Part shown: piece by piece, positions 1-22,790 of the stretch
How positions within the stretch are numbered: the first letter of the stretch is position 1
Layout of the letters: each line of letters starts with the position of its first letter
Source: a virus
Taxonomy: Duplodnaviria > Heunggongvirae > Uroviricota > Caudoviricetes
Reading direction: 5' to 3' (one strand)
Virus record (IMG/VR): IMGVR_UViG_2531839476_000012
Length of the DNA stretch: 26,095 nt
Notes under the pieces: model-generated
The model's input: the letters and a program-made list of their open reading frames with translations, nothing else
The model's database searches: none
What the model was told of the DNA's origin: nothing
Made by a program: the position numbers and the translations under genes

Positions 1-1164
1 TTACGCCTTCTTTATATCCTCCATAATTCCACAGTGGGACATATTTGGGACATTATCACCAAAAATGTCGTCTATTTTCCTTGCATGCTCTGTCAAATGA
101 TTAGGCGCAAGGTGAGCATACCTACGAACCATTTCTATGGACTCCCATCCGCCCATTTCCTGAAGCACAGATAATGGGACGCCTGACTGGATCAGCCAGC
201 TTGCCCAGGTGTGTCTGAGGTCATGGAAACGGAAATCTTCAATTCCTGCACGACGACAAGCTGATAGCCATGATGTCTTGCTGTCGATGCGCATCTTCCT
301 GACCGCAGGCGTTGATGTTCCATCTGCTCGCTTAGCCGCCTTGGTATGTACAAACACCCATTTGTGATGCTTGCCTATTTGATCACGCAACACTTTACAG
401 GCGGTATCGTTCAGCGCCACACCAATGGCGCGGTTTGATTTGCTCTCTTCTGGATTCACCCAGGCAACTCGTCGCTGCATGTCGATTTGTTGCCATTCCA
501 GATTTATGATGTTCGACTTTCTCAGACCAGTTGCCAGCGCAAACTTGACGACAGATTTCAGTGGTTCGGGGCACTCATCAATAAGGCGTTTTGCTTCCTC
601 CTTTTCCAGCCATCTGACTCGCTTGTTTCTGACCGCTGGTATCTTGATGACAGGCGCTTTTTCCAGCCACTTCCAGTCGCGTTCTGCAGCACGGAGAATG
701 GCCTTTATCATGGCAAGATGCTTTGCCTTTGTCTGAGTTGATACTGGCTTTGGTTCATAAACAGGCGGTTCTTTACCTTTCCTGATGGCGGCCTGAACTT
801 TCTGTTTCCATATTTCTTTCGTCTTTCTGTTATGCATTCTGCTTACAGCAGAGTAAATCTTTGCCTCCGAGATATCTTTAAGCCTTATACCCTCAAAATG
901 TTCAAGCCAGAACTCAATCCGGCTTTTATCTGAATCGAGAGATTTTTTATCAGCTTTTTCCTCAAGCCATCTTAGGCAGGCCTCTTCAAAAGTGACATCA
1001 GGTAAATCCCCTAGCTTTTCTACTCGCCAGAGTTCTGCTTTTCGCTTGTCGTGCAACTCCTGAGCTTGCCGCTTGTCCTTTGTGCCAAGAGATTCCTTAA
1101 TTCGTTTCCCGCCCGGGAGCGAATACGAGGCATACCATATTTCATTTCTGCGGAAGAGTGACAT
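1..1164 (-). CDS. int: Phage tyrosine integrase (site-specific recombinase), 387 aa
   Basis: Full-length ORF at the left edge of the prophage; C-terminal catalytic region with conserved tyrosine-recombinase motifs ([19 protein letters not shown]); followed by an xis-like gene. Recalled as resembling DLP12 IntD. Confidence 0.93.
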
Positions 1165-3965: not shown

Positions 3966-4375
3966 TTTGCTGCTCCTCATCATATCGACCCTGCAAGGTC
4001 GGTTGGTTTCTCCACAAAACAGAGAAGAACACCTGCGGTGGCAGCCGCCCGGATGGATTGGGTTATGAGCCCGTCGTCCGGTGATGCTCTTCTCTGTTTT
4101 GCAAAAAAGGACGGTACCAGCCGGAAGCAAGGGTACAAACTGGTACCGCCAGGACTACACACAGCATAAAGTTGTGGTGCCGGGTGCCTCCCGGTGCCTG
4201 GCGAAGGTTGCACACCAGGCGGGTGGGTATCCACAGAAGGTCGACTGTCAGCCTCAACCTTAACCCGCGTGCGCTGAGCCGCATTCACCACAACGCTAAG
4301 GATTCTCTCTGGTTGAAAATACTTAGCTGTTATGTGCCTGCTTTTAGCCACATCAGGCGAGGTGGACCTGGTTAT

Positions 4376-4421
4376 TCCCCAACAACAAGGATTCGGTTAA
4401 TCTGGATATCCCCAACAACAA
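4376..4421 (+). repeat. Two perfect 13-bp direct repeats (TCCCCAACAACAA) spaced 33 bp apart, just upstream of the accessory gene start
   Basis: Copies at 4376-4388 and 4409-4421 read directly from the sequence; candidate regulator-binding sites. Confidence 0.5.
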
Positions 4422-4435
4422 TAAGAGTATTCAAT

Positions 4436-4951
4436 GTGATCGCTGAATTAACGGCAGCAATGACGGCTATTCGTGAAACAGCCCAGATTGCAAAACTAAT
4501 GAACGAGGCAAAAACTCAAGCTGAAGTAAATGCGGCTATTGGTGAGCTGAACTCAAAGCTTGCGTCTATTCAGCGCGAATGCGTGTCTCTCGTTGAACTG
4601 GTGGGCTCTTATCAAGAAATAAATGCTTCTCTCAAAGCTAAAATTGCAGAATTCGAAAACTTTGAGGCTCAGACGGAAGGCTATATCCTTAACCAACTTG
4701 AGTCGGGTACTTTTGTATACTCGAAGGAGGTAATCGTGAACGGTGGCAGCATAACCATGCATCTTTGCCCAAAATGTTTTGGACAAAAGATAGTATCGAT
4801 ACTTCAACCATTCCCGGTTAGCGAAGATGAGCTTTTTCATAAAAGCAGGTGCCTCCACTGTGAAAATAAGTTTCTGATGAATAAAAATCCGGATTACGTA
4901 TCGCCTCCATCCATTGAGGAGTTGTCCAGAAAACTTAACGGCAATCTGTAG
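4436..4951 (+). CDS. Hypothetical accessory protein: N-terminal coiled-coil plus C-terminal CxxC...CxxC zinc-ribbon-like motif (about 165-171 aa)
   Basis: Open frame ending at TAG 4949-4951. Start is GTG 4436 (AAGAG about 9 nt upstream) or ATG 4460. Heptad-like helical N-terminus (AQIAKLMNEAKTQAEVNAAIGELNSKLASIQRE...), then CPKCFGQ...CLHCENKF. Followed by a rho-independent terminator. Opposite in orientation to the flanking cI and early-left genes. Confidence 0.5.
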   Translation: MIAELTAAMTAIRETAQIAKLMNEAKTQAEVNAAIGELNSKLASIQRECVSLVELVGSYQEINASLKAKIAEFENFEAQTEGYILNQLESGTFVYSKEVIVNGGSITMHLCPKCFGQKIVSILQPFPVSEDELFHKSRCLHCENKFLMNKNPDYVSPPSIEELSRKLNGNL

Positions 4952-4990
4952 ATTACTACTGTTGTGGATATCCAGATTGTTAAAGAGCTA

Positions 4991-5014
4991 AGCGTCCTGT
5001 AGGGCGCTTTTTTG
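4991..5014 (+). terminator. Rho-independent terminator for the accessory gene
   Basis: Imperfect GC-rich hairpin AGCGTCC-TGTA-GGGCGCT followed by TTTTTTG. Confidence 0.6.
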
Positions 5015-5099
5015 TTGCTAACGAATCATCCTGGACTTCATATGCCCCAGGCGGCTACTTCGTGGGCGTCCTGCCTGTTCGTTATCTTTGATATAAAAT

Positions 5100-5113
5100 C
5101 TAACTTAACTTAG
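5100..5113. promoter_or_regulatory. Candidate left operator (oL): 14-bp palindrome CTAACTTAACTTAG
   Basis: Same CTAA(C/G)-N4-CTTAG architecture as the two palindromes in the cI-cro intergenic region; lies just downstream of the cI stop. Confidence 0.45.
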
Positions 5114-5178
5114 TTATCATGACAAGAGAAAACACCAAACTTTTCTTGGTTCGGTGCCTTAGTTAGAGAAGAGAGGTC

Positions 5179-5805
5179 TTAGAGTTCGTATTGAACTCCT
5201 TTGACTACACCAATGATAAGGCAATTACCATTGATAGGGATGTTGGGATACCGAGGATTTAATGGCACTAAAAACTTTTGAGGGCCATCGATGACTAATT
5301 TTTTTACTGTAGCTTCGTTTGTTCCATCAAGTCGAGCGATGACTATTTTTCCATGACGAGGTTCTGCATCTGGATCTACAATCACTGTTGCGCCTTCTGG
5401 TATTGTTGGGAGGCCATTAGGGTTAGTCATGGAGTCACCTTTAACCTCTAATGCAAATGAGTTATCACCAACCTTTAATGATGTATCTACCCACTTGTCC
5501 ACTTCACTAAACACTTCTGCTGCCCTGCACTCAGTAAACTGCCCAGCCTGAACCCACGATATTACAGGAACTCTGCGCATGTTTGTGACGAGTTTGCCTT
5601 CAAACTCAGCACCGTAAAGAATGTAATCTATTGACGTATTGAAGAACTTCGCTAATTTCGAAAGTGCCTCCCCGCCAGGGGTATTGATGTCTTTCTCCCA
5701 GTACCCCACAGCAACGTCGCTTACTCCACAAAATTTACCCAATTCTTTCTGGGACGTTCTGGTAACTCTTCTCAGAGCTTTTATACGCTGACCAACCGTT
5801 TCCAT
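5179..5805 (-). CDS. cI: cI-type prophage repressor (HTH plus LexA-like S24 self-cleaving peptidase domain), 208 aa
   Basis: N-terminal HTH (TSQKELGKFCGVSDVAVGYWE); Ala-Gly cleavage site (VQAGQF); catalytic Ser in GDSM and downstream Lys (ATVKKL); divergent from the cro-like gene. Confidence 0.9.
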   Translation of the reverse strand: METVGQRIKALRRVTRTSQKELGKFCGVSDVAVGYWEKDINTPGGEALSKLAKFFNTSIDYILYGAEFEGKLVTNMRRVPVISWVQAGQFTECRAAEVFSEVDKWVDTSLKVGDNSFALEVKGDSMTNPNGLPTIPEGATVIVDPDAEPRHGKIVIARLDGTNEATVKKLVIDGPQKFLVPLNPRYPNIPINGNCLIIGVVKGVQYEL

Positions 5806-5902: not shown

Positions 5903-6103
5903 ATGACAACTGACGATATCGAAAGCTACTTCGGCAGTATTGAGAAAGTTGCTGCTTTTTTCGGCATAACAACTGAAGCCGTTTATCAGTGGCGAAACCG
6001 TCCGGGCCAGTTAATTCCAAAAGGACGTGCAGCAGAAGCTGCATATAGAACTTGCGGACGGTTGCCATTTAAACCTGAGCTTTATGAAAAATCTAATGGA
6101 TAA
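5903..6103 (+). CDS. cro: Cro-like small DNA-binding regulator, 66 aa
   Basis: Divergent from cI across the operator region; GGAGGG Shine-Dalgarno; small basic protein with an HTH-like segment (ITTEAVYQWRNRPGQ). Confidence 0.75.
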   Translation: MTTDDIESYFGSIEKVAAFFGITTEAVYQWRNRPGQLIPKGRAAEAAYRTCGRLPFKPELYEKSNG

Positions 6104-18568: not shown

Positions 18569-19088
18569 ATGGAAGTCAACAAAAAGCAGCTGGCTGACAT
18601 TTTCGGTGCGAGTATCCGTACCATTCAGAACTGGCAGGAACAGGGAATGCCCGTTCTGCGAGGCGGTGGCAAGGGTAATGAGGTGCTTTATGACTCTGCC
18701 GCCGTCATAAAATGGTATGCCGAAAGGGATGCTGAAATTGAGAACGAAAAGCTGCGCCGGGAGGTTGAAGAACTGCGGCAGGCCAGCGAGGCAGATCTCC
18801 AGCCAGGAACTATTGAGTACGAACGCCATCGACTTACGCGTGCGCAGGCCGACGCACAGGAACTGAAGAATGCCAGAGACTCCGCTGAAGTGGTGGAAAC
18901 CGCATTCTGTACTTTCGTGTTGTCGCGGATCGCAGGTGAAATTGCCAGTATTCTCGACGGGCTCCCCCTGTCGGTGCAGCGGCGTTTTCCGGAACTGGAA
19001 AACCGACATGTTGATTTCCTGAAACGGGATATCATCAAAGCCATGAACAAAGCAGCCGCGCTGGATGAACTGATACCGGGGTTGCTGA

Positions 19089-19114
<26 letters not shown>
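18569..19114 (+). CDS. nu1: Terminase small subunit Nu1, 181 aa
   Basis: Protein matches lambda Nu1 as recalled (MEVNKKQLADIFGASIRTIQNWQEQGMPV...); N-terminal winged-HTH; position right after cos. Confidence 0.95.

Positions 19115-22790
<3,676 letters not shown>

What the first reader, a model, noticed from the sequence alone, without database searches (positions are those of the whole stretch)
4376..5014. Self-contained accessory gene in the immunity region: coiled-coil plus zinc-ribbon protein of unknown function
Between the early-left operon and cI sits a plus-strand gene (4436-4951) in the opposite orientation to both neighbours. It has its own rho-independent terminator (4991-5014) and two perfect 13-bp direct repeats (TCCCCAACAACAA) three helical turns apart just upstream. 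The protein has a heptad-like helical N-terminus and a C-terminal CPKC...CLHC zinc-ribbon-like motif, and I do not recognise it as a characterised family. In lambdoid phages this exact position (cI-proximal, lysogen-expressed) is where superinfection-exclusion and abortive-infection genes such as rexAB and sieB sit. If pL lies at the oL-like palindrome (5100-5113), the early-left transcript would run antisense through this gene, coupling its expression inversely to induction.
Basis: partly seen in the sequence, partly recalled or inferred. Interest (0 to 1): 0.75.

Follow-up and report, generated by a model that had tools for sequence, protein, structure and literature searches.

The report
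Rip1-type phage-defence gene in sieB slot
The gene is a real, conserved prophage gene from the recently characterised Rip1 family of pore-forming anti-phage proteins, and it sits behind the same control region that phages lambda and P22 use for their exclusion gene sieB, so it is a new member of a known kind rather than something new.

Summary
The 171-aa protein is not an orphan. A profile of its homologues matches the solved Rip1 ("ring interacting pore 1") of phage HK446 (PDB 9oox) at E=4e-20 over nearly its full length. A high-confidence AlphaFold model finds only that structure significantly. Rip1 (Patel et al., Nature 2026) is a single-protein abortive-infection defence that assembles around phage small-terminase or portal rings and forms a membrane pore.

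The two "direct repeats" belong to the lambda/P22 sieB promoter region. The upstream 100 nt align with lambda sieB, P22 sieB (promoter and RNA start annotated), HK446 Rip1 and HK620 hkaP. A 31-nt element at 4336-4365 heads at least 31 unrelated cargo gene families in other prophages, including SieB. So this is the lambdoid sieB slot with a swapped cargo.

The non-coding flanks are about 90% identical across genera, while synonymous sites in the ORF are saturated. A conserved inverted repeat brackets the ORF; its role is unresolved. A leftward pL-like promoter with an operator lies just downstream, so antisense read-through on induction is plausible and has a P22 precedent (sas RNA). Verdict: the defence reading is supported, and the gene is a new member of a known family.

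The parts
4336..4365 (+). 31-nt conserved 'head' of the sieB slot (GCCTGCTTTTAGCCACATCAGGCGAGGTGG). It lies upstream of the predicted promoter. Its function is unknown. On the minus strand it reads as a 5-bp hairpin.
   Evidence: Present upstream of lambda sieB, P22 sieB, HK446 Rip1, HK620/HK630 hkaP, e14 ymfI and all cargo variants. In a truncated scan of viral contigs (more than 120 matches) it is followed by at least 31 unrelated ORF clusters.
4376..4388 (+). Direct repeat 1 (TCCCCAACAACAA). It overlaps the predicted -35 (TTCCCC, 4375-4380).
   Evidence: D7. It aligns with the first ACCCCTACAG repeat of lambda and P22, which lies inside the annotated P22 sieB promoter.
4398..4403 (+). Predicted -10 hexamer TAATCT of the sieB-type promoter. 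The predicted RNA start is about 4408-4410.
   Evidence: It aligns column for column with P22 TAAACT, 7 nt upstream of the annotated P22 sieB RNA start. This is the most conserved stretch of the cassette (0.98). It was not found by the generic sigma-70 scan, so it rests on homology only.
4409..4421 (+). Direct repeat 2 (TCCCCAACAACAA), at the start of the predicted 5' UTR, just before the Shine-Dalgarno AAGAG (4423-4427).
4399..4424 (.). Left arm of the inverted repeat that brackets the ORF (core AATCTGGATATCC).
   Evidence: I1. The core is conserved in 17 of 20 distinct cassettes. The long-range stem appears in the MFE and centroid folds of both strands.
4436..4951 (+). Rip1-family gene (171 aa): N-terminal long helices plus a C-terminal 4-Cys beta domain.
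4953..4978 (.). Right arm of the inverted repeat (core GGATATCCAGATT).
4979..5014 (+). Conserved GTTAAAGAGC box plus an intrinsic terminator (stem 4990-5009, T run).
   Evidence: The 3' block has a median 90% nt identity across genera. It is shared with ECs1072-family and other cargos.
5097..5125 (-). pL-like leftward promoter (TTGTCA-17-TAGATT) overlapping the operator CTAACTTAACTTAG (5100-5113). Its transcript would run antisense through the gene.
   Evidence: D1. The function is inferred.
5179..5805 (-). cI-type (LexA/S24 family) repressor, convergent with the Rip1-like gene (context).
   Evidence: A repressor-like gene lies 200-350 nt downstream on the opposite strand in at least 15 of 20 diverse loci.
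4101..4324 (-). STnc100/PasD-like prophage sRNA candidate with its own minus-strand terminator. It forms the left border of the slot (context).
   Evidence: Rfam RF02076, 40.3 bits (gathering score 47), E=1e-6, full-length model match. Family background is in bioRxiv 10.64898/2026.05.13.724894.

Best explanation
The ORF at 4436-4951 encodes a member of the Rip1 (ring interacting pore 1) family. Rip1 is a prophage-encoded, single-protein abortive-infection defence.

Proposed mechanism:
- In the lysogen the gene is transcribed rightward from a lambda/P22 sieB-type promoter (predicted -35 at 4375-4380, -10 at 4398-4403, RNA start about 4408). Transcription ends at its own terminator (4990-5014).
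- The protein is expected to be harmless on its own.
- When an infecting phage makes its ring-shaped small terminase or portal, the C-terminal 4-Cys domain binds the outside of the ring.
- About 12 copies assemble, and their N-terminal amphipathic helices form a membrane pore.
- The cell lyses or dies before progeny mature.

The gene occupies the lambdoid sieB slot, between the pL/cI end and the early-left genes. This slot is a hot spot where many unrelated cargo genes sit behind one conserved upstream element. On induction, leftward transcription from the pL-like promoter at 5097-5125 would run antisense through the gene. That would probably lower its expression and help the prophage avoid killing itself.

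Shown here: family membership, slot homology and cassette conservation. Inferred: promoter use, trigger, pore activity and antisense control.
For: Family membership:
- Profile of 46 homologues against the PDB: 9oox_L 'ring interacting pore 1 (Rip1)' of phage HK446, E=3.9e-20, profile 5-152 to chain 15-160, including both CxxC motifs. The single sequence gives E=2.7e-7.
[quoted passage not shown] It is 29% identical to the window protein (E=9e-20) and matches HK446 Rip1 at E=1.5e-19.
- The Rip1 mechanism is taken from the review PMC13434031, section 5, which summarises Patel et al., Nature 651:1060, and from PMC13601566.
- The family is large and uniform in length: 2744 representatives at 50% identity, about 145-180 aa. 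dN/dS is 0.13-0.29.

Slot and promoter:
- HK446 Rip1 and HK620/HK630 hkaP sit on the + strand inside the pL operon, where lambda and P22 have sieB.
- The upstream alignment includes the annotated P22 sieB promoter and RNA start.
- SieB (PF14163) and at least 29 other cargo clusters sit behind the same element.
- The slot is variable in otherwise near-identical E. coli prophages.

Antisense control:
- pL-like promoter and operator.
Against: - No experiment exists on this protein. It shares only about 28% identity with the characterised HK446 Rip1 and 29% with JBD30 gp30, so the trigger specificity is unknown and the activity could differ.
- I could not read the primary Rip1 paper. Its content comes from a review, a citing paper and the PDB title.
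- An older secondary citation (PMC11445458) attributes 'blocking genome injection' to JBD30 gp30, which conflicts with the pore model.
- The predicted promoter is weak (6 of 12 consensus positions) and was not called by the generic scan.
- The large terminase and portal of this prophage are split into several ORFs. The prophage may be defective, which makes the self-immunity argument moot here.
Confidence: 0.8

Rival explanations
1. The protein is a coiled-coil plus zinc-ribbon regulator of the CT398 / HP0958 (FlgZ) type. On this reading it would be an RNA- or sigma-factor-binding chaperone rather than a defence effector.
Against: - Neither Foldseek nor the sequence-profile search of the PDB lists CT398 among its hits, whereas Rip1 is significant in all three searches.
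- The gene context is a prophage exclusion slot, not a flagellar or secretion locus.
Confidence: 0.03
2. The protein is a DNA-binding autoregulator. It would bind the two upstream direct repeats and the inverted copy downstream, and it would control its own or neighbouring genes.
For: Three copies of a related motif flank the gene: two direct and one inverted. Zinc ribbons often bind nucleic acid.
Against: - The same repeats, inverted-repeat core and 3' block flank unrelated cargos (ECs1072 family; the L115-type membrane protein).
- Equivalent repeats (ACCCCTACAG) flank the promoter of lambda and P22 sieB, whose product is a membrane protein.
- The motifs therefore belong to the slot, not to this protein.
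Confidence: 0.04
3. It is a Rip1-family protein with a diverged job. Examples would be classical superinfection exclusion at the membrane (blocking DNA entry), or a role in the prophage's own lysis or assembly, rather than a ring-triggered abortive pore.
For: Identity to the characterised members is only 28-29%. One paper cites Tsao et al. 2018 for JBD30 gp30 'blocking phage genome injection'.
Against: - Full-length collinear homology, with all four Cys and the conserved G91/V94/Y95 and L123/P125 positions retained.
- Same slot and same orientation as HK446 Rip1.
- No transmembrane segment or signal peptide that would place it at the entry site.
Confidence: 0.12

Closest known systems
Rip1 (ring interacting pore 1) of phage HK446 (HK446_037, PDB 9oox) and of Pseudomonas Casadabanvirus prophages (Patel et al., Nature 2026)
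   Same: Homologous over the full length. Same two-part fold (long N-terminal helices plus a 4-Cys beta domain), same size (164 versus 171 aa), prophage-encoded, with its own promoter, and antisense inside a lytic operon. In HK446 it sits in the same sieB slot behind the same 31-nt element.
   Different: Only about 28% identity. Here the gene lies directly between pL and the early-left genes, with no N gene in between. It carries a CA-rich leader (CCCCAACAACAA rather than CCCCTACAG repeats), a 3' inverted-repeat arm and its own terminator, all of which HK446, lambda and P22 lack. The trigger and phenotype are untested.
SieB / Esc locus of lambda and P22, including the antisense sas RNA made from the pL transcript (Ranade and Poteete 1993; recalled from my own knowledge, papers not retrievable here)
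   Same: Same genomic slot. Homologous upstream region (31-nt element, two 33-bp-spaced repeats, -10 TAAxCT). Rightward transcription against the pL operon. Abortive-infection role in the lysogen.
   Different: The protein is unrelated (no PF14163 match, no membrane segments). No internal Esc-type start is evident. Whether a sas-like antisense RNA exists here is unknown.
HK620 / HK629 / HK630 HkaP
   Same: Same protein family (28% identity) and same slot. The 2001 GenBank note already reads 'putative superinfection exclusion protein'.
   Different: Never characterised. It has a lambda/P22-type leader rather than the CA-rich leader with a 3' block.
Tab (tail assembly blocker) of Pseudomonas phage JBD26
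   Same: A prophage moron in the same inter-terminase slot that holds Rip1 homologues in JBD30 and DMS3. It is antisense to the late operon and blocks a late step of infection.
   Different: An unrelated 83-aa protein. It targets the tape measure protein and has a dedicated anti-Tab partner. No partner gene is seen here.
hok/sok-type fold-back (5'-3' pairing) mRNAs, and RNase III processing stems that bracket rRNA genes
   Same: A conserved inverted repeat brackets a whole gene and is predicted to close it in a long-range stem.
   Different: If the RNA start is as in P22, the conserved 13-bp core lies upstream of the mRNA start. The full stem could then form only in the leftward (antisense) transcript. 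No covariation proof and no toxin-antitoxin logic has been shown.

Membership tests
Rip1 (ring interacting pore 1) anti-phage defence | Significant sequence homology to an experimentally characterised Rip1 | tested here: met
   A2 profile against 9oox_L: E=3.9e-20 over profile 5-152. Single sequence: E=2.7e-7. Against JBD30 gp30: E=9e-20.
Rip1 (ring interacting pore 1) anti-phage defence | Fold: N-terminal long (amphipathic) helices plus a C-terminal ring-binding domain | tested here: met
Rip1 (ring interacting pore 1) anti-phage defence | Single small gene in a prophage, with its own expression signals, not in an operon with partners | tested here: met
Rip1 (ring interacting pore 1) anti-phage defence | Activated by oligomeric phage rings (small terminase or portal); forms a roughly 12-mer around the ring | not testable with these tools
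   Needs co-expression, pull-down or cryo-EM. The resident Nu1-like small terminase (18569-19111) is not the family present in 9oox.
Rip1 (ring interacting pore 1) anti-phage defence | Membrane permeabilisation and abortive infection that protects the population | not testable with these tools
   Needs plaque, lysis-curve and dye-release assays.
SieB (PF14163) superinfection exclusion | Protein homology to SieB (membrane protein of about 190 aa) | tested here: not met
   No PF14163 hit for the window protein, whereas SieB cargos from the same slot score E=1e-25 to 1e-30.
SieB (PF14163) superinfection exclusion | Genomic slot and upstream control region of sieB | tested here: met
   Alignment with lambda and P22 sieB upstream regions. 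Same orientation against pL.
Site-specific invertible segment (shufflon / Gin-Hin type) | Both orientations of the segment between the inverted repeats occur in a population | tested here: not met
   An inverted-junction query found 0 of 5426 E. coli genomes covering 80% or more of the query. No recombinase lies adjacent.
CT398 / HP0958 coiled-coil zinc-ribbon proteins | Sequence or specific fold similarity beyond the coiled coil | tested here: not met
STnc100 / PasD prophage sRNA (neighbouring element, 4101-4324 minus strand) | Rfam RF02076 gathering score | tested here: inconclusive
   40.3 bits against a cut-off of 47, E=1e-6, full-length match with a terminator.

The most novel reading that the evidence does not exclude
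The sieB slot of enterobacterial lambdoid prophages may be a portable expression-and-silencing cassette.

Its proposed parts are:
- a conserved 31-nt head;
- a promoter with two repeats;
- in one sub-type, a 3' box whose inverted repeat pairs with the promoter/leader region only in the leftward pL transcript.

On induction, or on infection by a phage carrying the same cassette, the pL read-through RNA would fold into a 26-bp stem around the antisense cargo. It would then be processed (RNase III is the obvious candidate) into a sas-like antisense RNA. That RNA would shut off whichever abortive-infection cargo is installed (Rip1, SieB, ECs1072-family or others).

The roughly 90% conservation of the flanks, against saturated synonymous sites in the ORF, would then reflect selection for a shared 'password' among related phages.
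Probability: 0.2. Interest if true: 0.65.

Novelty: new member of a known kind. Interest (0 to 1): 0.38.

Why it matters
The gene, or a near-identical copy, is in about 13% of complete E. coli genomes (697 of 5426) and is annotated only as 'hypothetical protein'. Recognising it as a Rip1-family abortive-infection gene gives it a testable function. That function is relevant to phage therapy host range and to prophage-mediated immunity in E. coli, including O157:H7 and O55:H7 strains.

The locus also shows that the classical sieB position is a cargo-swapping hot spot marked by a short conserved element. That element could be used as a simple handle to harvest candidate defence genes; at least 31 families follow it, and most have no annotation.

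The unusually conserved flanks and the gene-bracketing inverted repeat point to regulation that has not been described for Rip1.

Tried and rejected
- **Family libraries.** Pfam, NCBIfam and PADLOC gave no family for the protein, only chance coiled-coil or zinc-ribbon hits. PHROGs gave phrog_1244, 'unknown function'.
- **Literature.** A search for HkaP and for the ECOR phage names found nothing useful. Tsao 2018, Bondy-Denomy 2016, Patel 2026 and Ranade and Poteete 1993 are not held.
- **Tab (JBD26).** Considered because of the shared Pseudomonas slot. Rejected: it is an 83-aa unrelated protein.
- **Invertible segment.** Rejected: no inverted junction in 5426 genomes.
- **MITE or transposon with terminal inverted repeats.** Rejected: the homology between contexts runs 4328-4988, about 70 nt beyond the left arm.
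- **Structured cis-regulatory leader RNA.** Not supported: the consensus fold is only -5.5 kcal/mol with no compensatory pairs. There is no Rfam match apart from the STnc100-like element.
- **Covariation test of the 5'-3' stem.** Inconclusive. The 13-bp core is nearly invariant. Compensatory changes come mainly from one lineage with a different cargo (L007). A slid control scores as high. Identical half-sites would also fit a protein-binding inverted repeat.
- **G-U bias favouring the minus strand.** Seen, but it can also be explained by stronger constraint on the 5' arm.
- **The 31-nt element as part of the mRNA leader.** Dropped after alignment with P22, where the annotated RNA start lies about 43 nt downstream of it.
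- **Resident small terminase as the partner in 9oox.** Rejected: it is a Nu1 type, whereas 9oox holds the T6 small terminase.

Full report
**Context**

The window is the left half of an E. coli lambdoid prophage of the CPS-53/e14 type. It is integrated next to tRNA-Thr (thrW) and is 100% identical to strain CREC-629 over the tested stretch. The layout is:
- integrase at 1-1164 (-);
- xis and the yfdT/R/Q/P-like early-left genes (-) up to about 3965;
- a non-coding stretch;
- the target ORF at 4436-4951 (+);
- a LexA/S24-type cI at 5179-5805 (-);
- cro at 5903-6103 (+);
- replication, Q, lysis and head genes.

**Observation**

- The ORF is 171 aa from GTG 4436. RefSeq calls the same CDS (WP_000559922.1, 'hypothetical protein').
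- The terminator has an 8-bp stem at 4990-5009 plus a T run.
- The two perfect 13-mers TCCCCAACAACAA lie at 4376-4388 and 4409-4421 and are unique in the window.
- The operator-like palindrome at 5100-5113 recurs twice between cI and cro. It overlaps a leftward promoter-like site, TTGTCA-17-TAGATT.
- The protein model is confident (pLDDT 90.9): helices 2-24 and 28-79, then a beta-rich domain whose four cysteines are invariant in 46 homologues.
- The gene is under purifying selection, with dN/dS 0.13-0.29.

**What the protein is**

The domain libraries were silent (Pfam, NCBIfam, PADLOC). PHROGs placed the protein in phrog_1244, 'unknown function'. tblastn against phages found three groups of homologues, each on the strand opposite to its neighbours:
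- 99% copies in ECOR-derived phages;
- HkaP of HK620/HK629/HK630 at 28% identity, carrying the GenBank note 'putative superinfection exclusion protein';
- a gene in Pseudomonas Mu-like phages (DMS3, JBD30 gp30, D3112) at 29% identity.

An exhaustive profile search found 2744 cluster representatives, nearly all 145-180 aa.

The decisive result came from solved structures.
- A profile of 46 homologues matches chain L of PDB 9oox, 'ring interacting pore 1 (Rip1)' of phage HK446, at E=3.9e-20 over almost the whole length, including both CxxC motifs.
- The single sequence gives E=2.7e-7, and JBD30 gp30 gives E=1.5e-19.
- In Foldseek against the PDB, the two Rip1 chains of 9oox are the only significant hits (E about 6e-7, probability 1.0, TM 0.53-0.71, 28% identity). 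The entry title is 'HK446 Rip1 in complex with phage T6 small terminase'.

**What Rip1 does**

This part comes from the literature, not from tests here. A 2026 review summarises Patel et al., Nature 651:1060.
- Rip1 is a prophage protein encoded between the terminase genes of a P. aeruginosa prophage.
- It is not toxic alone.
- Escape mutants map to the portal (Pseudomonas phages) or to the small terminase (E. coli phages).
- Twelve Rip1 copies form a ring around an 11-mer small-terminase ring. The C-terminal half contacts the ring, and the N-terminal amphipathic helix forms a pore.
- The pore releases dye from liposomes and lyses the infected cell prematurely.
- Homologues are widespread in proteobacterial prophages.

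The window protein fits the sequence-level expectations. It has no TM segment, moderately amphipathic N-terminal helices and a conserved C-terminal domain. Trigger, oligomer and pore cannot be tested with these tools.

One older secondary citation says JBD30 gp30 'blocks genome injection'. I could not read the source, and I treat the later structural work as superseding it.

**The slot**

HK446 Rip1 (HK446_037) lies on the + strand inside the pL operon between N and cIII. HkaP does the same in HK620 and HK630. That is where lambda and P22 carry sieB.

The homology goes beyond position. Lambda and P22 have, upstream of sieB, the same 31-nt element (GCCTGTCTTTTAACCAC(A/G)TCAGGCTCGGTGG). It is followed by two ACCCCTACAG repeats 33 nt apart. 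The window's upstream 100 nt align with them column for column.

In the richly annotated P22 record, the sieB promoter spans the first repeat and a TAAACT -10, and the RNA start lies just before the second repeat. Transferred by alignment, the window's promoter would be TTCCCC (4375-4380) - 17 nt - TAATCT (4398-4403), with a start at about 4408. This promoter is weak by consensus and was not called by the generic scan. It rests on homology to a mapped promoter.

**A cargo hot spot**

In otherwise near-identical E. coli prophages the slot holds different genes:
- an ECs1072-family gene;
- an unrelated 170-aa gene;
- an unannotated 81-aa ORF;
- ymfI/ymfJ in e14.

The same Rip1-like cassette (window 4328-4988, 94% identity) also sits in a different prophage of O55:H7 and O157:H7, between dicB and another repressor.

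My ORF-clustering script found at least 31 unrelated cargo clusters starting 35-170 nt downstream. They include two SieB (PF14163) clusters, the ECs1072 family and Rip1 homologues. None is in PADLOC.

Across 20 diverse Rip1-like loci from other genera, a repressor-like gene lies 200-350 nt downstream on the other strand in at least 15. A Klebsiella example shows the same layout with called genes.

**Unusually conserved flanks**

I compared the window with 19 loci from Citrobacter, Kosakonia, Klebsiella, Edwardsiella, Symbiopectobacterium and other genera. Median nucleotide identity is 91% for the 5' block and 90% for the 3' block. It is 69% for the ORF (55% at protein level) and about 58% further upstream.

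The boundaries are sharp, at about 4330 and about 5014. Third codon positions are at 0.45 throughout the ORF, and dS is 1-2.6. The flanks are therefore under strong constraint or are repeatedly homogenised.

The leader does not look like a structured RNA. Its consensus fold is -5.5 kcal/mol with no compensatory pairs.

**The inverted repeat**

A 26-nt inverted repeat brackets the ORF. Its 13-nt core, AATCTGGATATCC / GGATATCCAGATT, is the best-conserved part of both blocks. Folding 4335-5014 puts this long-range stem in the MFE and centroid structures on both strands, with z=-2.8 for the plus strand and z=-4.7 for the minus strand.

Evidence on what the repeat does is mixed.
- Two cassettes with other cargos show matching changes in both arms (L007: GACT/AGTC; L006: position 8).
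- The formal count is inconclusive. The core is nearly invariant, and one slid control scores as high.
- Mismatches are mostly G-U in the minus-strand reading. This could also reflect tighter constraint on the 5' arm.
- If the RNA start is as in P22, most of the left core lies upstream of the mRNA. The full stem could then form only in the leftward pL transcript.
- The segment is not invertible: 0 of 5426 genomes carry the inverted junction.
- It is not a transposon delimited by the repeats.

Its role remains open. The most interesting possibility is processing of the pL read-through RNA into an antisense regulator. From my own knowledge, the P22 pL transcript yields the sas RNA that switches translation of sieB/esc (Ranade and Poteete 1993). 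I could not retrieve those papers.

**Conclusion**

The gene is not an orphan. It is an unannotated member of the Rip1 family installed in the lambdoid sieB slot.

I rate membership as very likely. The Rip1-type mechanism in this prophage is likely but untested. The antisense and processing control is plausible but unproven.

The locus is common, present in 697 of 5426 complete E. coli genomes.

The parts that may go beyond published work are these:
- the slot-marking 31-nt element with its many cargos;
- the strongly conserved flanks;
- the gene-bracketing inverted repeat.

Noticed in passing
window 4101-4324 (- strand): A full-length but sub-threshold match to the prophage sRNA family STnc100 (RF02076; 40.3 bits against a gathering score of 47; E=1e-6). 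It ends in a minus-strand terminator (stem about 4107-4150). RefSeq annotates this stretch as a 'frameshifted hypothetical protein', and in e14 as ymfH. A 2026 preprint links STnc100 to the PasD sRNAs.
   Followed up: partly
window 4015-4101: A large hairpin (24-nt arms, 83% complementary, 39-nt loop) lies between the sRNA-like element and the first early-left gene. Its function is unknown.
   Followed up: no
window 4336-4365; also L234 1398-1428 (lambda), L236 2155-2185 (P22), L113 2865-2895 (HK446): A 31-nt element that is near-identical from lambda and P22 to this prophage. It always lies upstream of the rightward gene in the sieB slot. At least 31 unrelated ORF families follow it in a truncated sample of viral contigs. 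It lies upstream of the annotated P22 sieB promoter, so it is not simply the promoter.
   Followed up: partly
L008 about 1940-2185 and L009 about 1906-2150 (E. coli ACN002, VE-T9): An 81-aa ORF (MTFDEKELDNAINKII...) with a good Shine-Dalgarno sequence directly follows the 31-nt element. It is not annotated in RefSeq. It is the second most common cargo in the sample (11 contigs).
   Followed up: no
window 19089-21052 and 21212-22551: The lambda-A-like large terminase is split into two ORFs (216 + 439 aa). The portal is also split into at least two ORFs (135 + 312 aa). This suggests frameshifts, so the prophage may be defective or the sequence may carry errors.
   Followed up: no
L005 4237-4965 (phage PhiR49_1, PV340568): The deposited annotation extends the Rip1-like ORF upstream to a 729-nt CDS that runs through the promoter region. 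The conserved N-terminus of homologues argues for the 516-nt CDS.
   Followed up: partly
L006 1969-2403 and related loci: The ECs1072-family gene (144-148 aa; no Pfam or PADLOC match) uses the same leader, inverted-repeat core, 3' box and terminator as the Rip1-like gene. It was the most frequent cargo in the sample (14 contigs), which makes it a candidate defence gene by association.
   Followed up: partly
window 5442-5467: A 73% copy of the operator-containing 26-mer lies inside the cI coding region. It is probably chance but was not examined.
   Followed up: no
L004 3001-3495 (JBD30 gp30) and DMS3 / D3112 orf25: The Pseudomonas Rip1 homologues occupy the same inter-terminase moron slot that holds the unrelated Tab/anti-Tab pair in JBD26. 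That slot is therefore also a cargo-swapping site.
   Followed up: partly
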